The notes beneath the pieces are model-generated. The model did no database searches and was not told the DNA's origin. It worked only from the letters and a program-made list of their open reading frames with translations. 33,508 nt of DNA. It comes from a virus (Duplodnaviria; Heunggongvirae; Uroviricota; Caudoviricetes). The stretch is from the IMG/VR virus record IMGVR_UViG_2706794686_000007; one strand, 5' to 3'. Within the stretch, counting starts at the first letter, position 1; each line of letters opens with the position of its first letter. Position numbers and translations under genes: made by a program. Of this stretch, positions 617-26,021 are shown in pieces.

Positions 617-1760
617 TTATATACTTGCAGCCGTCACCCATGCTCCATTTAACAGATACTGCAACGGCCGGTAATACACGCCGCCGACGTTATCTGCCGT
701 ATTCTTACCGACATCCTGTACTTTAATTCCGGTAAGAACATTGCCGCCCCCCAGATTCAGANNNNNNNNNNNNNNNNNNNNNNNNNNNNNNNNNNNNNNN
801 NNNNNNNNNNNNNNNNNNNNNNNNNNNNNNNNNNNNNNNNNNNNNNNNNNNNNNNNNNNNNNNNNNNNNNNNNNNNNNNNNNNNNNNNNNNNNNNNNNNN
901 NNNNNNNNNNNNNNNNNNNNNNNNNNNNNNNNNNNNNNNNNNNNNNNNNNNNNNNNNNNNNNNNNNNNNNNNNNNNNNNNNNNNNNNNNNNNNNNNNNNN
1001 NNNNNNNNNNNNNNNNNNNNNNNNNNNNNNTCTCTGCTCCCAGCCTGATATCCTGGATATATCGGGAATCCGCATCCTGCTGTGTTATACCAGAAGTGAT
1101 GTTTATGTCCTGCGTCCCGTCAAAGGGAACCCCATTAATATTTCTTGGGGTGGCGAGTCTATTCGCGGCAACGGCGGTGCCGTCCGATGGCAGAGCATTC
1201 GCCGCCCTGTTTACCGTTTCCCGTAAACCGACGTTATCGATAAAAGCCCCTTTATCCGGAATGTCTGCGCCGTTCTGCTCCCTGCGCAGGTAACGGTTAT
1301 CACCTTCGCTTTTGCTGTAAACATCCAGATTATTACGGGCGGTTCCCTTATTCTCCAGGTCGGCGAGATTCTGATCCTTCGCCAGGGCATTAACGTCAGC
1401 GGGACCAAGACTGTTTTTTGTGGCAAGCGTCCCCAGACCAAGATAACCACGGGCCAGACGCTGGGCCTCCGCACCGGCATCAGCAATTTCTTTCAGGTTA
1501 TTTTTCCGGGAAAAGGCATTCGCAGCGATAATGGCTTTAATGGACAGCGTAAGCTGGTTTAACTGCGCCTTATCCGGCTGAATACTGGCTTCAGCCAGAA
1601 TATTCAGCAGTTCGGCCTGGAGAATATTCAGCCAGTCCTGACCAATCCAGCTGATACCTTTTTGTCCGTCACCTTCGGTAAACCAGGTGGTGGTATTACT
1701 CTGCGCCGGTGCCAGCGCAGGCATATTCGCCACGCCGGAATTATTATCAACATGAAACAT
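617..1760 (-). CDS. tail fibre protein (Mu S / P2 H-like C-terminal region), interrupted by N-mask 762-1030
   Basis: ORF from 1760 runs into the N-run; motifs [23 protein letters not shown] and C-terminal [17 protein letters not shown] resemble P2 gpH as I recall it. Frame across the mask cannot be verified. Confidence 0.75.
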
Positions 1761-6893: not shown

Positions 6894-8937
6894 AGTTCCC
6901 TCCGTTCCAGACGTTCACATCCAGGCCATGCTGTGCGGTATCATCCACATCAATACTGCGCGCCCGCCAGCCTTCAGGGGCAACAAGCTCCACCCGTGCG
7001 GCGGTTTTCGCGGTGGCCTGTCCGCCGTTTTCGTCACTGCCGCCACGCAGTTTCTGCCAGGCCTGCGTCAGCCAGCCCCCCAGATAATCACCGAGATAGC
7101 TGCCCACCGTGGAACCAATGGCAACCCCGACCGGACCGGCAGCCGCCCCCAGCGCGCCACCGGCGATACTTCCGGCAAGGGAACCCACGGCACCGGCTTT
7201 ATCGGCTGCACTGGCGCTGCTGTCCAGCAGTACAGGAGCCGCCATGGCACCGGCCCACAGGGCACCACCACCCAGCCGACCGGCACCACGGAACAGCCCG
7301 GCAAAACGCCCCAGCCCCATGCGGTTTCCGGCCGCCGTTAGCAGACCACCGGCACGGCTCATCATACGACCGAAGAAGCCCTGTTTACCGGCACTCTCCG
7401 CCAGTTGCTCACCGGCAGTCACGACGGTCGTGACACCCCGTCCACGTCCGGGGCCGCGTTTTTTACGGCCGCGCACGGTTTTGCCGTCACCGCTGACCAC
7501 CACATCCCCGCCACCTGAGGCCAGGCCACCCGCAGGCCAATTGGTGACCAGCACGGGCTGAACGGCAGCCGGATTTACCCCGGTAAGGAAATTCAGGAAC
7601 CGGCCAGCGCGTCCGGGCTGCGTTCCCGGTACAGTGGTCTGCGGTTTGCGGAAGGGCGACGTCAGCACGGAGGTCATCGCCATGCCATAGCGTAAGGGGG
7701 TTGCGCCGAGACGTAATGCCCCCGTCCCCGCAAACCTGAGCACCTTCAGCGCACGGGAGGCGAGATACATATACATCAGGTACTTTGCGGCGGTCTGCGC
7801 ACCCTGACCAATGCGATCCAGCGCATCGCCATAACCGGCGTCGCGCAGTGCCTGAAGCGTTTCCCTGACTTTCTGAATGACCCGGTAAAAGCCGGTCGCA
7901 GCGTCTCTGGCATACTCAAATCCCTGATTCAGGGCTGAGGCCGTCTGTGTGGCCAGCTTATCCTGTAAGCCGCTTTTCTGTGCCGCATCAGCATAATCCA
8001 GAAAGCCTTTCAGGCTCTTTTTCAGGCTGTCAAACGGTCCCTTTGCCATCACCTCGCGGGCAAATCCGTCCCAGACATCGCCCATCATGGACGTCATTCC
8101 CGTCCAGGAATTCATGGCGTTTTTCTGGGCACCTTTTGCCTGTTCGGCCATCACCTGAAATAACAGGCGAATGCTGTCCGGTCCCAGTTTTCCTTTCTCG
8201 CCTTTCTCACGGATGATCTTCTGGTTTACACCCAGCTTATCGGCCAGCAACTGGTAAACGTTAATCCCGTATCCGGTCAGAATATTGGCGTCCGCTGCCT
8301 GGATACTCTGGCGGGCAAACATCTGTTTGAGTTGCAGGGACGCACCCTGTGCATCTGACAGTGACCAGCCGTGATAGCCGCCCTGATCCTGAAGCATGGT
8401 AATAAAGCGACGGGCTTCCCTGTCACTCATACCGAACCCGCGACTGGAGGCGTATTCCTGCATAACCCCCGCCAGCCCCCAGGTGGTGTCTTTGGCGTTC
8501 TGTACCGCCCAGGCTTTCACTGCTTCCGTTTTTGCCGTATCGCCATGATTAATGGCGTTGAGACGCAGAATATAGTTCTCCATCTCTGCGGCCGGGCGGA
8601 TAAAGGCTTTATTAAACCCGTAGACCGCAGCCCCTCCCGCCAGCATCCCGTAAAGGTTGCTTATCCGCCCGATGGTGCCGGTAATGCTGCCCTGAAGGCG
8701 GTCAAAATCTGACGTCACCGTGCGGATACTGCCACGAACACCGGCAAGCGTTCGCTGCATACGGGAGCCGACAAGTTCTGTCTCCTGACCGGCACGACGT
8801 GCTGCATTTCCAAGACCACCCAGCCCCGTCCTGCCGGAACGGGAGAATGCCCCCAGCTCCTGTGACCACTGGCGGGATTTGGCAGAAATATTGCCGAGTA
8901 AATCGACAATCAGGGAGGCTTTCAGGTTTTTTGCCAT
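6880..8937 (-). CDS. tail tape measure protein
   Basis: 685-aa ORF, Gly/Ala-rich with a low-complexity C-terminal third, downstream of the tail assembly chaperone. Confidence 0.8.
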   Translation of the reverse strand: MAKNLKASLIVDLLGNISAKSRQWSQELGAFSRSGRTGLGGLGNAARRAGQETELVGSRMQRTLAGVRGSIRTVTSDFDRLQGSITGTIGRISNLYGMLAGGAAVYGFNKAFIRPAAEMENYILRLNAINHGDTAKTEAVKAWAVQNAKDTTWGLAGVMQEYASSRGFGMSDREARRFITMLQDQGGYHGWSLSDAQGASLQLKQMFARQSIQAADANILTGYGINVYQLLADKLGVNQKIIREKGEKGKLGPDSIRLLFQVMAEQAKGAQKNAMNSWTGMTSMMGDVWDGFAREVMAKGPFDSLKKSLKGFLDYADAAQKSGLQDKLATQTASALNQGFEYARDAATGFYRVIQKVRETLQALRDAGYGDALDRIGQGAQTAAKYLMYMYLASRALKVLRFAGTGALRLGATPLRYGMAMTSVLTSPFRKPQTTVPGTQPGRAGRFLNFLTGVNPAAVQPVLVTNWPAGGLASGGGDVVVSGDGKTVRGRKKRGPGRGRGVTTVVTAGEQLAESAGKQGFFGRMMSRAGGLLTAAGNRMGLGRFAGLFRGAGRLGGGALWAGAMAAPVLLDSSASAADKAGAVGSLAGSIAGGALGAAAGPVGVAIGSTVGSYLGDYLGGWLTQAWQKLRGGSDENGGQATAKTAARVELVAPEGWRARSIDVDDTAQHGLDVNVWNGGNYGLY

Positions 8938-8940
8938 GGG

Positions 8941-9135
8941 TTACTGCTTCGTTCTGAGAATTTTTTCGGTCTGTCGGCAGTGCCGGTAAAGCTGCGATAA
9001 GGGGAGGTTAAGCGCCCACTCCGGGCCGCTTTTTGTCACCATCCCCAGCACAATTGCGGCTTCTTCAATCTGATCCCGGCACTGCATCTGGTCGCCCCCG
9101 TTCAGCGACCAGCTTTCCGGCCATCGCGGAATCAA
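8941..9135 (-). CDS. possible frameshift extension of the tail assembly chaperone
   Basis: 64-aa ORF overlapping the 3' end of the chaperone ORF (9065-9135) in the +1/-2 frame and ending 4 nt before the tape measure start. Confidence 0.35.
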   Translation of the reverse strand: MIPRWPESWSLNGGDQMQCRDQIEEAAIVLGMVTKSGPEWALNLPLSQLYRHCRQTEKILRTKQ

Positions 9136-9541
9136 GCAGGCTTACTGCCGCCATCAGTCGGGAGAGATCGCGCTCGCTGAGCTGTCCTATCTGACGCGGA
9201 GACAATGGCCCCTCAATCTGGCCGACAGCGGCAATCTGACGGCGCAGCAGCGCAATGCCGCGCAGTGCCGGTGAGGCCACAAGAACCGGACCGTTTCGGG
9301 TTTCCATAAGACGCTCGGCCTCGCTCTCCGCATCAATGCTGTCTTTTGCCGTCAGTTCGCGGAAGGTGACGCGGTATTCACGGGATTCCCCGAACGGCAG
9401 ACCGTCGAGCAGATCCACATAGCCGTTCGCCAGTTGTTCAGCCAGCCCGGCGGTGCGGGGATCGCCGTCTTCAAGTGCATCCCGGATAGCCTCCATCACG
9501 GCCTCGTCAGAAACCGCCGTTTTTTTCTTACGTGTGCTCAT
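9065..9541 (-). CDS. tail assembly chaperone (Mu gp41-like)
   Basis: 158-aa acidic ORF between the tail tube and tape measure genes, the conserved chaperone position. Confidence 0.55.
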   Translation of the reverse strand: MSTRKKKTAVSDEAVMEAIRDALEDGDPRTAGLAEQLANGYVDLLDGLPFGESREYRVTFRELTAKDSIDAESEAERLMETRNGPVLVASPALRGIALLRRQIAAVGQIEGPLSPRQIGQLSERDLSRLMAAVSLLDSAMAGKLVAERGRPDAVPGSD

Positions 9542-22541: not shown

Positions 22542-22893
22542 TCGTGGCCGCCTTGCTGATTTGTGAAATGAGTTGCAGGGTGCGTTGCTGGTTTGCCAGC
22601 ACCAGACGGGCTTCGTCCCGTTCACGCACAAGCACATGATTATTGTCCTCAAGGCGCTGCGTCTTCTGGTGCATTCCCCATACCACGGCAGCCAGCACGC
22701 TCATCACCCCCAGCGCCGCCATACAGCCTCCGGCAATCAGGGCCGGTAAGGGATTGTTCACCGCAGACACAGCACACCCCGCAGCAGCACAACGGCACAC
22801 AGCAGCGCAATCATGAGCGGTCGCCAGAAGCGGTTCAGACTTTCGGCAAATCGTAACGACATAACCATTCATCCGCCGAACGGCGGGCCTCAA
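22372..22893 (-). CDS. i-spanin (Rz-like)
   Basis: Hydrophobic N-terminal segment (LPALIAGGCMAALGVMSVLAAVVWG) then Gln/Arg-rich coiled coil; follows the endolysin; start uncertain. Confidence 0.5.
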   Translation of the reverse strand: MRPAVRRMNGYVVTICRKSEPLLATAHDCAAVCRCAAAGCAVSAVNNPLPALIAGGCMAALGVMSVLAAVVWGMHQKTQRLEDNNHVLVRERDEARLVLANQQRTLQLISQISKAATNEKQQNMQHSEEQQSIVRRSLATVPAAAVPVPDDVADRVRRAVCEIRAGEAGADPR

Positions 22894-23335
22894 GACCGGG
22901 GAGTTTTACCCCCTTTGAATAAATCCAGCGGATATACTGCTTACAGGACGCGGGCATCTGCCCGGCATTGATAAGGCGCAGGAGCGTGGAGTTGCGAAAG
23001 TTCGTTTCACCGGCCCAGAAAATCCAGGAGGCCAGCGCCACCGTCTGACCACGGGTAAGCGGCACCTGAACATGACGATCGATAGCCGCAAAGGCCCATT
23101 TCATGTCCTTTTCCAGCAGCTCCAGACACTCTTCATCAGTTTTTGTCATCCCCGGTTTCACATCCGGGCCGGTATGGCCGTAACAGATGGTGGGGGTGCC
23201 GGTGGGATCAATGTACGTGGTGTTTTCTTTCCCTTCCCAGTAGCCGGTGTAGTGCGTGGCAATGGTGAACGTCCCGGCTCCGGCCAGAACAAGGGCAATC
23301 AGCTTTTTACGCAGGGGTGCGGGGAGTTTTGGCAT
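22835..23335 (-). CDS. SAR endolysin (T4-lysozyme-like GH24)
   Basis: 166-aa ORF; Gly/Ala-rich weakly hydrophobic N-terminus (LIALVLAGAGTFTIAT); catalytic-region pattern E-x8-D-x5-T (WEGKENTTYIDPTGTPTICYGHTG). Confidence 0.8.
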   Translation of the reverse strand: MPKLPAPLRKKLIALVLAGAGTFTIATHYTGYWEGKENTTYIDPTGTPTICYGHTGPDVKPGMTKTDEECLELLEKDMKWAFAAIDRHVQVPLTRGQTVALASWIFWAGETNFRNSTLLRLINAGQMPASCKQYIRWIYSKGVKLPGLEARRSADEWLCRYDLPKV

Positions 23336-23401
23336 TGTTACGCTGTCTCATGGTGTTCTCTGAGTCAGCGTAACCGTGAGGAAAAGGGGGCAGGATTTGC
23401 G

Positions 23402-23842
23402 NNNNNNNNNNNNNNNNNNNNNNNNNNNNNNNNNNNNNNNNNNNNNNNNNNNNNNNNNNNNNNNNNNNNNNNNNNNNNNNNNNNNNNNNNNNNNNNNNNN
23501 NNNNNNNNNNNNNNNNNNNNNNNNNNNNNNNNNNNNNNNNNNNNNNNNNNNNNNNNNNNNNNNNNNNNNNNNNNNNNNNNNNNNNNNNNNNNNNNNNNNN
23601 NNNNNNNNNNNNNNNNNNNNNNNNNNNNNNNNNNNNNNNNNNNNNNNNNNNNNNNNNNNNNNNNCCGCCTGAGCAGGTTCAATCCCCTGACGGTGCAGTT
23701 CAGCACTGATCACATCAACCAGGTCCCGCAGCGTGCCGGGCCAGTTCTTTTTCAGCTCATCATCAGGAATATCATCCAGACGGTCAATCAGCGCGTGCAG
23801 CTGTTCGCTGTCACCAAACATGCTCATCTGTGTTTCAGCCAT
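23402..23842 (-). CDS. Mor/C-family transcriptional activator, 3' part N-masked
   Basis: N-terminus MAETQMSMFGDSEQLHALIDRLDD…GIEPAQA resembles the Mu Mor N-terminus as I recall it; SD GGAGG upstream; the rest is hidden by the N-run. Confidence 0.55.
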
Positions 23843-23872
23843 ACCCGCCTCCGGTCATCATTACACAGGGCA

Positions 23873-23906
23873 AGTTTAAAATAAAAATCCCGCGCTGTGG
23901 CGGGAT
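23873..23906 (-). terminator. intrinsic terminator-like hairpin between gemA and the Mor/C-family gene
   Basis: Minus strand: ATCCCGC-CACAGC-GCGGGAT (7-bp stem) followed by TTTTATTTTT. Confidence 0.5.
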
Positions 23907-23912
23907 TTGGGG

Positions 23913-24425
23913 TTAACGGGGGAATGATTTTTCATACAGCCTGCAAACACGCTCATAACTCATCACTGCACGTTCCGACATATCCAGGGCTGCCAGCATT
24001 TTGCGGCGGTGCCAGCGTTTGAGACGCTCCAGCACATCAGAGGCCAGCGCGGGTTGTTGCTCCAGCCACTGCCAGTTAGCCACACCTTCGCCGTCGTTCT
24101 GCGCGGCCGTCTGCGATTTCACCCAGCGGTTAAGGGCCGTTTCCCCGCCATCAGAGATAAATCCCTGCCGGTGCATCACTTTCCAGATGGCGCGAATTTT
24201 GGCGGTCACCGTACCCGGTTTTAAGGCCCGGTTAACCGGCTTCTGACGCACTTTAAAACCGCGTTTTTTGAAAACATCCAGCACGCGGGATAACTCACCG
24301 GGTGACATATCACGGCAACTGGATTTGCCGGTGGCTGCCAGCAGCGCGGATGTATAGGTATCATGGTCAAGCTGTAGATCGCGTTTTGCGACATGTATTA
24401 AGGTAATCAGGGAAGCGCGATTCAT
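23913..24425 (-). CDS. gemA: GemA-like regulatory protein (Mu gp16, DUF1018-type)
   Basis: 170-aa ORF; N-terminus MNRASLITLIHVAKRDLQLDHDTY…GKSSCRDMSPGEL… resembles the GemA/gp16 family; sits upstream of the Mor/C-family gene as in Mu. Confidence 0.65.
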   Translation of the reverse strand: MNRASLITLIHVAKRDLQLDHDTYTSALLAATGKSSCRDMSPGELSRVLDVFKKRGFKVRQKPVNRALKPGTVTAKIRAIWKVMHRQGFISDGGETALNRWVKSQTAAQNDGEGVANWQWLEQQPALASDVLERLKRWHRRKMLAALDMSERAVMSYERVCRLYEKSFPR

Positions 24426-24437
24426 TATCGTGGCTCC

Positions 24438-24467
24438 ATAAAAAATGGGCGGTGTTACCGCACCGCC
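24438..24467 (-). terminator. intrinsic terminator-like hairpin upstream of gemA
   Basis: Minus strand: GGCGGTG-CGGTAA-CACCGCC (7-bp stem) followed by CATTTTTTAT. Confidence 0.45.
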
Positions 24468-24495: not shown

Positions 24496-24735
24496 ATGTC
24501 AGATATAAAAAATGCACTTGATGTTGCCGCATTCACAATGGCTGGAAATCTTATGGTAACCCTGTTCGATAAGGGGCTGATTTCCCGTGAGGAGGCAATA
24601 CATATTATCAATCTCGCTCAAAAAAACTCTACCCCGGAAAATGCAGAAGATATCCAGGATGGCTCATATATTAATACCGACTGGCATTTCGACAATCTCC
24701 GGGCCTGTATGGGGATTACCGCTGAAAAAGATTAA
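24496..24735 (+). CDS. hypothetical protein, plus-strand gene antisense to the early operon
   Basis: 79-aa ORF with SD (aaaggaaaaatct-ATG); AT-rich block; 3' end overlaps the convergent 24716-25018 ORF by 20 nt. Confidence 0.5.
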   Translation: MSDIKNALDVAAFTMAGNLMVTLFDKGLISREEAIHIINLAQKNSTPENAEDIQDGSYINTDWHFDNLRACMGITAEKD

Positions 24736-25148: not shown

Positions 25149-25473
25149 TATGTATCCCCTGTAATTCCGGCAAGGCCGAAAGATGGCACCAGTGCGTCAC
25201 CTGTCCGTCCTCATCTTCAAGGCAGGCTCCGGTTTCTTCATCAATAAAAAAGCCTTCATACCCCATATGGCCGATGCGCAGTTCCTGTTGGTCACCATAC
25301 TGAACAATCAGCACGACAGCCTCCATATCAGGCGGAAATGCGTCATCCAGTGAATGCCAGGGATAACCGCGCAAATCCCCGAAATAAACGCCGGTCAGCG
25401 TTCCGCCACAGAGCGGCATTCCGGCGGCACACACAAGAGGTTCATCTGATTCAACAAATAAGGTCGTTATCAT
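25141..25473 (-). CDS. hypothetical early protein
   Basis: 110-aa acidic ORF, translationally coupled to both neighbours. Confidence 0.45.
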   Translation of the reverse strand: MITTLFVESDEPLVCAAGMPLCGGTLTGVYFGDLRGYPWHSLDDAFPPDMEAVVLIVQYGDQQELRIGHMGYEGFFIDEETGACLEDEDGQVTHWCHLSALPELQGIHNG

Positions 25474-26021
25474 GGCGTTAACTCCCGTAATACAGCGTCC
25501 TCGGCAGTCCGGCGACGGTAATAAACTGCGTGAGCAGAATGTTCAGATATTCCAAACTTTTCGCCAATTTCCCGGAATGACAGACGGCGTGGGTAATCGG
25601 AATCACGCAGCTCACGTATAAGACGTACATCATCATCAGATATGCGCGTGCCGGGGCGTAACTCTCCGCACTTTGTTAATCCAGCACCAATCATTCCTGC
25701 CCGACATCTGACAGAATCTTTATTACGTCCGAGATATTCTCCCATTTGCTGGCAGGTCATTGTTCTGGCATTTTTTCGAATAAACTTATCTTCATCAGGT
25801 GTAAATCTTGGGTGTTTATATTTCAGTAACTCCGGGTATGAACTGCGCAATACACCAGTCCGGTTATATACAGCCCAGACAGTTCTTTTTATTCTGGCAG
25901 CAATATCCTTAACCGGGGTGGATGAATAAAGCGCAATCAGCAGCGCATCTTCTTCAGGTGTCCACGGACGGACATGAGCGGGGGCGCGACCTTTTAGTCC
26001 CATGGGTTGTAATTTCATCAT
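25470..26021 (-). CDS. DNA-binding protein with three tandem HTH-like repeats
   Basis: Three repeats begin WTPEEDALL…, FTPDEDKFI…, ISDDDVRLI…, each followed by a basic helix; the last resembles a sigma region-4-like HTH (RLSFREIGEKFGISEHSAHAVYYRRR). Confidence 0.45.
   Translation of the reverse strand: MMKLQPMGLKGRAPAHVRPWTPEEDALLIALYSSTPVKDIAARIKRTVWAVYNRTGVLRSSYPELLKYKHPRFTPDEDKFIRKNARTMTCQQMGEYLGRNKDSVRCRAGMIGAGLTKCGELRPGTRISDDDVRLIRELRDSDYPRRLSFREIGEKFGISEHSAHAVYYRRRTAEDAVLRELTP

What the first reader, a model, noticed from the sequence alone, without database searches (positions are those of the whole stretch)
23348..24467. Only one Mor/C-family activator visible, and terminator-like hairpins bracket gemA
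Mu has two Mor/C-family regulators between gemA and lys. Here only about 507 nt separate the Mor/C-family start (23842) from the lys start (23335), room for one gene plus a promoter, though 263 nt of it are N-masked. Strong terminator-like hairpins lie upstream of gemA (24438-24467) and between gemA and the activator (23873-23906), which would put the activator in its own unit. The cascade may be shortened or rewired. The call rests on my recollection of Mu organisation and on the masked length being accurate.
Basis: partly seen in the sequence, partly recalled or inferred. Interest (0 to 1): 0.5.

Follow-up and report, generated by a model that had tools for sequence, protein, structure and literature searches.

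The report
Single late activator in Mu-like prophage
This Mu-like prophage really has only one Mor/C-type activator, closest to Mu's late activator C and flanked by real terminator hairpins, but this layout is normal for a large, common group of E. coli, Shigella and Salmonella prophages.

Summary
Near-identical unmasked relatives show that the N run hides the 3' 245 nt of one 140-aa Mor/C-family gene (423 nt). The real stretch is 250 nt, not 263. A profile search finds no second Mor/C ORF in the prophage. The protein is 40% identical to Mu C and 28% to Mor.

Both hairpins are gene-sense, terminator-like elements. Under strict criteria they are two of only three such sites on the whole 33.5-kb sense strand (0.24 expected).

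About 40 related loci all show gemA, one activator, then lys. Mu-type loci keep Mor plus C.

Two late promoters carry perfect TCTGA-N6-GCAAA sites placed 23 nt upstream of a -10 hexamer, which is Mu's -43.5 geometry. One precedes lys and one precedes the head protease gene. This points to a two-tier cascade.

The hairpin after gemA (T2) sits where Mu's early terminator t9.2 sits. T2 overlaps a conserved promoter-like block (GCCACA-17-TAAACT). That block stays next to the activator gene even where opposite-strand cargo genes separate the activator from gemA. What switches this putative promoter on is unknown.

The hairpin before gemA (T1) is shared with Mu. It occurs wherever a divergent accessory gene precedes gemA.

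Verdict: ordinary for its clade, with modest novelty.

The parts
22835..23335 (-). lys (endolysin), first late gene
   Evidence: Pfam Phage_lysozyme, E 1e-36. Annotated as lysozyme in HH35.
23367..23411 (-). Predicted late promoter Plys. The -10 hexamer TACGCT is at 23372-23367 and the spacer at 23395-23373. The activator site is TCTGA TATTCC GCAAA. Only its last 6 nt (23401-23396) are visible. The first 10 nt, which include the activator gene's TGA stop, lie in the N mask. 31 nt separate the -10 hexamer from the lys ATG.
   Evidence: Sequence read. Masked half taken from HH35 and IMG/VR relatives. The same architecture is conserved in 19 distinct relatives.
23402..23842 (-). The single Mor/C-family activator gene. 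Residues 1-59 are visible at 23665-23842. The rest, including the beta-strand linker and the HTH, is N-masked. The real gene is 423 nt (140 aa). Counted from the right flank, the stop codon falls at about 23409-23407.
   Evidence: Pfam Mor PF08765, E 7e-31. 40% identity to MuC and 28% to Mor. PDB matches to MuC 9l0x/9vw8 (2e-28) and Mor 1rr7 (2.5e-11). Reconstruction.
23873..23901 (-). Predicted promoter-like element of the activator gene, here called P(act). -35-like GCCACA at 23901-23896, 17-bp spacer at 23895-23879, -10-like TAAACT at 23878-23873. It overlaps the loop, right arm and T tract of T2.
   Evidence: The block CCACAG(C)GCGGGATTTTT-N4-TA(A/T)A(C/G/T)T is near-invariant upstream of the activator gene in most of 23 distinct sequences. 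This includes loci where 0.55-1.5 kb of cargo separates the gene from gemA. It scores 7/12 to consensus, so one search did not flag it.
23875..23908 (-). T2: intrinsic-terminator-like hairpin plus U tract, starting 4 nt after the gemA stop codon
   Evidence: Found after gemA in 34 of 37 related loci. The stem is invariant, the loop varies, and there is one G.U-compatible change. The exact 24-mer occurs in 18 IMG/VR loci, each with one copy directly after gemA; two loci carry a second copy just upstream of the activator gene.
23913..24425 (-). gemA (gp16 family)
   Evidence: Pfam GemA PF06252, E 2e-28.
24438..24467 (-). T1: hairpin plus U tract. The U tract ends 3 nt before the gemA Shine-Dalgarno sequence GGAG.
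   Evidence: The stem is conserved in Mu, Mu-type, clade-3 and window-type loci. 93% of cells are paired and there is one compensatory UA->CG pair. T1 is present only where the upstream gene is on the opposite strand.
24496..24735 (+). Opposite-strand accessory ORF (79 aa) in the position of Mu gp15
   Evidence: phrog_32893, unknown function, E 1e-45. No Pfam or PADLOC hit. Mu gp15 has the same position and orientation.
15180..15224 (-). Predicted late promoter PI. Site TCTGA AGTCCC GCAAA at 15224-15209, 23-nt spacer, -10 hexamer TATGCT at 15185-15180, then 6 nt to the annotated protease ATG at 15173.
   Evidence: 10/10 match. Shuffles expect 0.06 sites with at least 9/10 matches per strand. 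It aligns in register with the Mu G-I intergenic region.

Best explanation
This is the early-to-late regulatory junction of a widespread enterobacterial Mu-like prophage lineage that runs a two-tier lytic cascade instead of Mu's three tiers.

One 140-aa Mor/C-family protein, closest to Mu C, is the only activator. It is predicted to bind as a dimer to TCTGA-N6-GCAAA elements centred at -43.5. It would switch on at least the lysis operon (Plys) and the head operon (PI) directly.

T2 is the counterpart of Mu's early-operon terminator t9.2. It sits 4 nt after the stop codon of the last early gene, which here is gemA and in Mu is mor. T2 is fused to a weak sigma-70-type promoter-like element (GCCACA-17-TAAACT) that belongs to the activator gene. 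The 45-nt element therefore both ends early transcription and starts the activator unit. It also marks a slot where opposite-strand cargo genes are inserted in relatives.

T1 is a second gene-sense terminator-type hairpin. It marks the boundary between a divergent accessory gene and gemA, and Mu has it too.

Shown here: gene content, hairpins, conservation patterns, site geometry.
Inferred: termination activity, promoter activity, binding of the activator to the sites.
Unknown: what turns on the activator's promoter.
For: One activator:
- Searches show a single Mor/C gene.
- It is C-like: 40% identity to C and 28% to Mor.
- It has the family's GG-x3-Y-x-P-x-G linker and an SETQIY recognition helix like C's SQPQIY (PMC2582627).

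Clade-wide layout:
- All window-type loci, plus L003, L004 and L005, show gemA, one activator, then lys. Mu-type loci have Mor plus C.

Late promoters:
- Plys and PI both match 10/10, with the same 23-nt spacing to a TAyGCT hexamer.
- The Plys architecture is conserved across activators of 50-100% identity.
- PI aligns with the Mu G-I intergenic region.
- The geometry equals that of the Mu C and Mor sites, a 16-bp dyad centred at -43.5 (PMC2582627, PMC4390567).

T2:
- Its energy and T tail are equal to those of Mu t9.2.
- In Mu, t9.2 starts 5 nt after the mor stop codon.
- T2 is present in 34 of 37 loci.

P(act):
- The loop, right arm, T tract and -10 block is retained next to the activator gene in 10 cargo-bearing loci, while the full hairpin stays with gemA.
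- The sequence between the -10 hexamer and the RBS diverges completely between clades, yet a TAnAnT hexamer keeps its position.
Against: - No transcript data exist: neither termination nor promoter activity has been measured.
- P(act) matches the consensus only 7/12 (8/12 in clade B), and nothing explains how it stays silent in a lysogen.
- T2 lies 4 nt from a stop codon, where ribosomes repressed a model terminator from about 90% to under 10% (PMC4824070). Read-through from the early promoter could therefore be the main route.
- The T2 stem shows no compensatory changes, so its conservation could also reflect a DNA-level role.
- Only two of the four late promoters expected by analogy with Mu were found. 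No PP- or Pmom-like site reached 8/10 in a sensible place.
- If T1 is efficient, it would block gemA expression from the early promoter, and no promoter fits between T1 and gemA.
Confidence: 0.6

Rival explanations
1. Pure attenuation, with no separate promoter. The activator is made only by read-through of T1 and T2 from the early promoter. T2 is a leaky terminator, or one suppressed by translation of gemA, and it sets the delay and dose. The conserved block upstream of the activator gene is just the 3' half of the terminator.
For: - The T2 hairpin starts 4 nt after the gemA stop codon, and this 3-4-nt spacing is conserved.
- Terminators this close to a stop codon are strongly repressed by ribosomes (PMC4824070).
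- In the Pseudomonas Mu-like phage Fc02, RNA-seq places the gemA and mor homologues in the early pE operon (PMC9936078).
- P(act) is a poor consensus match (one search did not flag it).
Against: - In 10 relatives, 0.55-1.5 kb of opposite-strand, presumably untranslated-in-sense DNA lies between T2 and the activator gene.
- Several of those loci have lost the left arm of the second hairpin copy but keep the T tract plus a -10-like hexamer at a fixed distance.
Confidence: 0.25
2. Positive autoregulation. The single activator binds at or near T2 and drives its own promoter, so it plays both the Mor and the C roles.
For: The motif CCAAATCCCGCC at the left arm of T2 resembles CGCAAATCCTGCC at Plys. 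In Mu, the Mor site overlaps t9.2 (primers in PMC4390567 combined).
Against: - The 16 bp at the -43.5 position relative to TAAACT (GTTAA CCCCAA ATCCC) match the site consensus at 2/10.
- The best alternative register matches 5/10 and sits 4 nt out of phase in clade B (analysis).
- The region upstream of the hairpin is not conserved in cargo-bearing loci.
Confidence: 0.07
3. The hairpins are mainly insulators or module-boundary sequences. They stop stray sense transcription that arises in AT-rich, opposite-strand cargo from reaching gemA, the activator and hence the lysis genes in a lysogen. They also serve as conserved recombination joints for cargo exchange. Lytic transcription bypasses them by translational coupling or by an unknown antitermination.
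For: - T1 occurs only where an opposite-strand gene precedes gemA, whatever that gene is.
- Cargo ORFs of 106, 113, 140 and 143 aa occupy the T2 slot, in two loci between two full T2 copies.
- T2 sequence identity persists although the flanking proteins are only 55-69% identical.
Against: T2 is present in 'empty-slot' genomes such as this one. No antitermination system is known for Mu-like phages (my knowledge). This reading is compatible with the best explanation rather than exclusive of it.
Confidence: 0.35
4. Defective prophage or masking artefact: a second Mor/C gene has been lost by deletion or is hidden in a mask.
For: 263 nt are masked within the interval, and two more masks exist.
Against: - Unmasked relatives at 99.8-100% identity show one gene that fills the interval.
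- The other masks are too short (269-270 nt) to hold a 390-nt gene. The mask at 27359-27628 falls in gam in HH35.
- The layout is fixed across the clade.
Confidence: 0.02

Closest known systems
Bacteriophage Mu early-middle-late cascade (Pe -> Mor -> Pm -> C -> Plys, PI, PP, Pmom)
   Same: - The gene order is the same: opposite-strand gp15-like ORF, gemA..., activator, lys.
- The activator belongs to the Mor/C family.
- The late promoters have a TAnnnT -10 hexamer, no -35 hexamer, and a 16-bp imperfect dyad (5+6+5) centred at -43.5 (PMC2582627).
- A terminator sits 4-5 nt after the last early gene and is overlapped by the next promoter.
   Different: - There is no mor, no gp18-20 middle operon and no Mor-type site.
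- The half-sites are TCTGA/GCAAA rather than Mu C's A/T-rich ATTAT/ATAAC type.
- The activator gene directly follows the early terminator.
Mu early terminator t9.2 overlapping the middle promoter Pm
   Same: - It is a hairpin with an A tract, a G+C stem and a run of 5 or more T.
- The energies are similar (-12.2 vs -13.5 kcal/mol).
- It starts 5 nt (Mu) or 4 nt (here) after a stop codon.
- A -10 hexamer follows downstream.
   Different: - In Mu, the Mor site AGTAA-AGCCGG-TTAAT overlaps the hairpin, and the -10 hexamer TATCCT lies 14 nt after it (+1 = 9224, derived from primers in PMC4390567).
- Here the -10-like hexamer lies 6 nt after the hairpin, and no activator site is recognisable.
Other Mu-like phages with a single Mor/C homologue (BcepMu, Pseudomonas Fc02/D3112-like phages, Shewanella MuM16-1, Vibrio and Pseudoalteromonas Mu-like phages)
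   Same: - tblastn finds one Mor/C place per record in all non-Muvirus phage records.
- GemA is next to the single regulator in BcepMu and MuM16-1 (PMC8541194).
- Fc02 RNA-seq shows gemA and mor at the end of the early operon, followed by sequential late clusters (PMC9936078).
   Different: - Those regulators are only 28-39% identical to this one.
- No terminator/promoter composite or binding site has been described for them in the papers I could search.
Morons: accessory genes in temperate phages flanked by their own promoter and terminator
   Same: Opposite-strand accessory ORFs sit at fixed slots bounded by terminator-type hairpins.
   Different: The hairpins face the phage-sense direction and belong to the phage backbone. 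They are present even when the slot is empty.

Membership tests
[quoted passage not shown] | Significant match to the family profile over the full domain | tested here: met
   PF08765, 106.9 bits (cut-off 24.9), profile positions 2-107 of 107. The C-terminal 81 residues were taken from the 99.8%-identical HH35 copy because they are masked in the window.
[quoted passage not shown] | Small size (about 100-150 aa), invariant G-G-x3-Y-x-P-x-G beta-strand linker, and an HTH near the C-terminus (PMC2582627) | tested here: met
   140 aa. The linker GGRGYYLPVG aligns with C's GGRQFYIPCG. The HTH region MSETQIYSVIRNQRR aligns with C's LSQPQIYQIIARQRK.
[quoted passage not shown] | Sequence relationship to solved Mor and C structures | tested here: met
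   MuC 9l0x/9vw8, E 2e-28. Mor 1rr7/9l0y, E 2.5e-11. No structure was predicted here.
[quoted passage not shown] | Dimer binding to a dyad element and activation of sigma-70 RNA polymerase | not testable with these tools
   Only candidate sites were found.
Mu-type three-tier cascade (Muvirus) | Two paralogous activators, Mor and C | tested here: not met
   One profile hit in the window and in HH35, against two in Mu. One in all window-type loci.
Mu-type three-tier cascade (Muvirus) | Middle operon (gp18-gp20) between the early terminator and C, driven by a Mor-dependent Pm | tested here: not met
   Only 70 nt separate gemA from the activator gene. No AGTAA-N6-TTAAT-type site is present.
C-type late promoters | -10 hexamer, no -35 hexamer, 16-bp imperfect dyad centred at -43.5, upstream of late operons | tested here: met
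   Plys and PI. PP and Pmom counterparts were not found.
Intrinsic (Rho-independent) terminator | G+C-rich stem-loop immediately followed by a U tract, on the transcribed strand, downstream of a gene | tested here: met
   T2 has a 9-bp stem with 5 G-C pairs and the tail UUAUUUUAAA. T1 has a 7-bp stem with 6 G-C pairs and the tail CAUUUUUUAU. T1 lies upstream of gemA, not after a sense-strand gene.
Intrinsic (Rho-independent) terminator | Measured release of transcripts at the U tract | not testable with these tools
   No transcript data are available.
Structured RNA element supported by covariation | Compensatory base changes beyond what relatedness gives | tested here: inconclusive
   T1 has 1 pair with a double change; 251 of 500 shuffles reach the covariation score. 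The T2 stem is invariant apart from one G.U-compatible change.

The most novel reading that the evidence does not exclude
The 45-nt element after gemA is a fused terminator-promoter cassette, and its promoter half is switched on by something other than a Mor/C protein. Candidates are the early D5-like DNA-binding protein at 25470-26021 (present in 31 of 46 single-activator loci but in 2 of 38 Mu-type loci), GemA, or replication/supercoiling. If so, this lineage times late expression by a wiring different from Mu's. The same cassette would also serve as the recombination joint through which opposite-strand cargo genes are swapped.
Probability: 0.25. Interest if true: 0.5.

Novelty: new variant of a known kind. 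Interest (0 to 1): 0.3.

Why it matters
Mu is the textbook model for transposable phages, and its Mor-to-C relay is usually taken as the template for annotation. Here a very common enterobacterial prophage lineage does without Mor. Its sequence matches 231 of 5426 complete E. coli genomes, and its activator protein is seen on 1000 or more contigs. The analysis gives concrete, testable predictions:
- a binding site, TCTGA-N6-GCAAA at -43.5;
- two late promoters;
- a terminator/promoter composite;
- two fixed slots for accessory genes.

This helps annotate such prophages, some of which sit inside Stx phages. It also frames a simple question: how is the only late activator kept off in the lysogen? 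It does not change the understanding of the family.

Tried and rejected
- **Second Mor/C gene.** A profile of Mor, C and the HH35 protein was searched against every six-frame ORF of 25 aa or more. There was one hit in the window and in HH35, and no other hit below E = 4.
- **Autoregulation through T2.** The shared motif AAATCCYGCC looked promising. The other two exact copies (8880-8871 and 20322-20313) lie inside coding sequence without hairpins. The region at -43.5 of P(act) matches the site consensus at only 2/10.
- **Homology of the T2-to-activator spacer with Mu Pm (CCTGTG..ATGA..ACCG).** It is not conserved in clade B or in the 83% clade, so I dropped it.
- **A translated sense ORF ending just before T1, which could suppress T1.** This holds only in the window's own variant (46 aa, TTG start) and not in other T1 variants.
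- **T1 covariation.** Not significant.
- **PP and Pmom counterparts.** The hits at 8034 (8/10, inside the tape-measure gene) and 1800 (7/10, -10 overlapping a start codon) were judged chance.
- **Genome-contig scan with the protein.** It found nothing.
- **Rfam.** Only sub-threshold hits: Trp_leader at 21.5 bits against 41 required, and a snoRNA.
- **ARAGORN.** It did not reproduce the 'tRNA-OTHER' annotated in HH35.
- **A d'Aubenton-Carafa-type score written from memory.** It gave negative values even for Mu t9.2. I use only the relative numbers: T-tail weight 3.28 for T2, 3.27 for t9.2, 1.62 for T1 and 0.53 for the Mu T1-like hairpin.
- **Clean consensus sigma-70 promoters for gemA or for the accessory ORF.** I looked by eye around T1 and found none.
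Full report
**What is at the coordinates**

All phage genes in the window run on the minus strand.
- lys is 22835-23335.
- An ORF starting at 23842 runs into an N run at 23402-23664.
- gemA is 23913-24425.
- A 79-aa ORF on the plus strand is at 24496-24735.

The window holds three N runs of 263-270 nt, so the masking is generic.

**Filling the mask**

The region is 99.8% identical to a prophage in E. coli HH35 and in four other complete genomes. It matches 231 of 5426 complete E. coli genomes at 80% identity or more. In HH35 the interval holds one annotated 'Mor transcription activator family protein' of 140 aa. It lies 70 nt after gp16/gemA and 71 nt before lysozyme.

The masked stretch is 250 nt in HH35 and in five IMG/VR loci that share both flanks. 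The 263 Ns therefore overstate it by 13 nt. The mask hides residues 60-140 of the protein, its TGA stop and 5 more nt. No second gene can fit.

**Only one activator, and it is C-like**

I built a profile from Mu Mor, Mu C and the HH35 protein and searched every six-frame ORF. It hits one ORF in the window, one in HH35 and two in Mu.

| Comparison | Result |
|---|---|
| Pfam Mor PF08765 | E 7e-31 |
| Identity to Mu C | 40% (E 2e-37) |
| Identity to Mu Mor | 28% (E 5e-17) |
| PDB, MuC 9l0x/9vw8 | E 2e-28 |
| PDB, Mor 1rr7 | E 2.5e-11 |

The protein keeps the family's GG-x3-Y-x-P-x-G linker and a C-like recognition helix (PMC2582627).

**Mu for comparison**

The Mu layout is as follows:
- gp15 on the opposite strand;
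- gemA at 8233-8784;
- mor at 8781-9170, overlapping gemA;
- the hairpin at 9176-9196 (t9.2);
- gp18-20;
- C at 9963-10385;
- lys at 10480.

From the primer sequences in PMC4390567, Pm +1 is at 9224 and the Mor site (-51 to -36) is AGTAA-AGCCGG-TTAAT at 9173-9188. The Mor site therefore overlaps the terminator hairpin.

**The hairpins are real**

Both hairpins lie on the gene strand.
- T1: stem 24467-24448, tail CATTTTTTAT, -13.3 kcal/mol.
- T2: stem 23908-23885, tail TTATTTTAAA, -13.5 kcal/mol.
- Mu t9.2 for comparison: -12.2 kcal/mol.

The loose scan is not enriched overall, with 16 sites against 13.9 expected. Under strict criteria only three sites exist on the whole sense strand (T1, T2 and 607-590), against 0.24 expected.

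**Relatives**

Proteins 67%, 66% and 50% identical to the activator all sit between GemA and a lysozyme.

The exact T2 24-mer occurs in 18 IMG/VR loci, always directly after gemA. This holds even where GemA is 67% and the activator 55% identical.

Eighty gemA loci fall into three groups:
- The window type (GemA at least 66% identical) always has one C-like activator before lys.
- The Mu type has Mor (87-99% identical to Mu Mor) plus C (mostly about 98-99% identical; one at 75%).
- A third group has a Mor-like gene followed by a Mu-like t9.2/Pm.

In the phage collection, only Muvirus records show two Mor/C places; all others show one. The single-activator layout is therefore normal for this clade, and apparently for most Mu-like phages. 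In Pseudomonas phage Fc02, RNA-seq places the gemA and mor homologues at the end of the early operon (PMC9936078).

**Late promoters**

In HH35 the sequence before lys reads TCTGA TATTCC GCAAA, then 23 nt, then TACGCT, then 31 nt to the ATG. The TGA of the left half-site is the activator's own stop codon. In the window, only the part from CGCAAA onwards is unmasked.

The same pattern occurs once more in the window, immediately before the head protease gene. It reads TCTGA AGTCCC GCAAA, then 23 nt, then TATGCT, at 15224-15180. Shuffles expect 0.06 sites of this quality. This second site aligns in register with Mu's G-I intergenic region.

The Plys architecture recurs in 19 distinct relatives: [A/T]CT[G/A]A-N6-GCAA[A/T]-N23-TAnnCT, then 27-31 nt to the start. 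One Salmonella locus (L003) keeps only the promoter-proximal half-site and has a 22-nt spacer.

A 16-bp 5+6+5 element whose last base is 23 nt from the -10 hexamer is centred at -43.5. This is exactly the geometry reported for Mu C and Mor (PMC2582627, PMC4390567). I infer that the single activator turns on late operons directly. No binding was tested.

**What T2 is**

T2 follows the last early gene by 4 nt, as t9.2 follows mor by 5 nt. Its stem is invariant in 34 of 37 loci, while its loop varies.

Ten relatives carry 0.55-1.5 kb between gemA and the activator gene. The inserts hold opposite-strand ORFs of 106, 113, 140 or 143 aa, two of them with signal-peptide-like N termini. In these loci the full hairpin stays with gemA.

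Next to the activator gene, one block is retained: CCACAG(C)GCGGGATTTTT, then 4 nt, then TAAACT, TATAGT or TATATT. In two loci this block is part of a second complete hairpin. Elsewhere the left arm is lost. Between clades, the sequence downstream of this hexamer is unrelated, yet the hexamer keeps its position.

I read the block as a weak promoter: GCCACA at 23901-23896, a 17-bp spacer, and TAAACT at 23878-23873.

I found no activator-type site in front of this promoter. What switches it on, and what keeps it off in a lysogen, is unknown.

T2 also lies within the distance where ribosomes repressed a model terminator from about 90% to under 10% (PMC4824070). Read-through from the early promoter therefore remains a serious alternative.

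**What T1 is**

The stem GGCGGTG...CACCGCC and the following GGAGGxACGATxATG are conserved from Mu to this phage, although the GemA proteins are only 43-50% identical. The U tract varies from CCCTTTCC in Mu to TCTTTTTTTT.
- 93% of cells pair.
- There is one compensatory UA-to-CG change.
- There is no statistical covariation.

T1 is present only where the gene upstream of gemA is on the opposite strand, whatever that gene is. The counts were 17 loci with T1 and an opposite-strand upstream gene, and 17 without T1 and a same-strand upstream gene. The 6 loci with T1 and an apparent same-strand ORF are cases where the gemA reading frame extends upstream.

I take T1 to be a boundary terminator or insulator. 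Its real effect on gemA expression is open, because no promoter fits between T1 and gemA. Older work cited in PMC3820752 and PMC12407980 treats gemA-gemB(mor) as a separately expressed 'gem operon' in Mu. A conserved boundary element there would fit that view.

**Verdict**

The new points are modest and need experiments:
- the predicted site consensus;
- the two late promoters;
- the terminator/promoter composite;
- the two cargo slots.

Noticed in passing
window 762-1030, 23402-23664, 27359-27628: There are three N-masked stretches of 269, 263 and 270 nt. The middle one replaces 250 nt in all close relatives, so mask lengths are not exact. ORFs read through the masks (for example the 164-aa ORF at 23348-23842) are artefacts.
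   Followed up: yes
L012, L014, L016, L020, L021, L023 (= L052, L047, L059, L051, L031, L048), also L034, L050, L053, L056: The gemA/activator junction is an insertion slot. Opposite-strand cargo ORFs of 106, 113, 140 and 143 aa sit there. Two have signal-peptide-like N termini, and one belongs to phrog_15648. None has a PADLOC hit. In L016 and L021 the cargo lies between two complete copies of the T2 hairpin.
   Followed up: partly
window 24496-24735 (+): A 79-aa opposite-strand ORF (phrog_32893, function unknown) occupies the position and orientation of Mu gp15. Relatives carry unrelated opposite-strand ORFs (83-167 aa) in the same slot, always with T1.
   Followed up: partly
activator protein, residues 5-9 (visible, about 23830-23816) and the last 5 residues (masked): QMSMF near the N terminus and QPRLF at the C terminus align with MuC's QHDLF and QPDLF. 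Those are the two beta-clamp-binding motifs reported to be needed for MuC-dependent transcription (PMC12867686). The C-terminal QPxLF is kept in nearly all relatives listed.
   Followed up: partly
window 25470-26021 (-): This early 183-aa ORF is a 'transcriptional regulator, D5-like' (phrog_323, E 5e-53; weak Myb/HTH Pfam hits). It is present near gemA in 31 of 46 single-activator loci but in 2 of 38 Mu-type loci. It is a candidate early regulator, with no evidence of a link to the activator promoter.
   Followed up: partly
window 15250-15330 (-): The intergenic region between the virion morphogenesis gene (G homologue) and the protease gene aligns with Mu's G-I region around the annotated gyrase cut site. 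The shared block is CG.GATTTT..AACC.GTATTTAACGG. The strong gyrase site may be conserved.
   Followed up: no
window 15173-15185 (-): The predicted PI -10 hexamer ends only 6 nt before the annotated protease ATG, and there is no Shine-Dalgarno sequence. Either the mRNA is leaderless or the true start codon lies further downstream.
   Followed up: no
window 607-590 (-): This is the third and only other strict terminator-like site on the sense strand (GAAGGCC-ttcc-GGCCTTC followed by TTTATTACT). It lies near the tail-fibre end of the prophage.
   Followed up: no
L001 13031-13110 (HH35), about window 15865-15944: RefSeq annotates a 'tRNA-OTHER' here in HH35. ARAGORN finds no tRNA or tmRNA anywhere in the window.
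   Followed up: partly
L002 10382-10408 (Mu): Mu has a strong hairpin (-15.5 kcal/mol, z -6) overlapping the C stop codon, with a poor T tail, just upstream of the Plys C site. The Salmonella relative L003 also has a hairpin after its activator gene. The window-type clade A has none, because its Plys site overlaps the stop codon.
   Followed up: no
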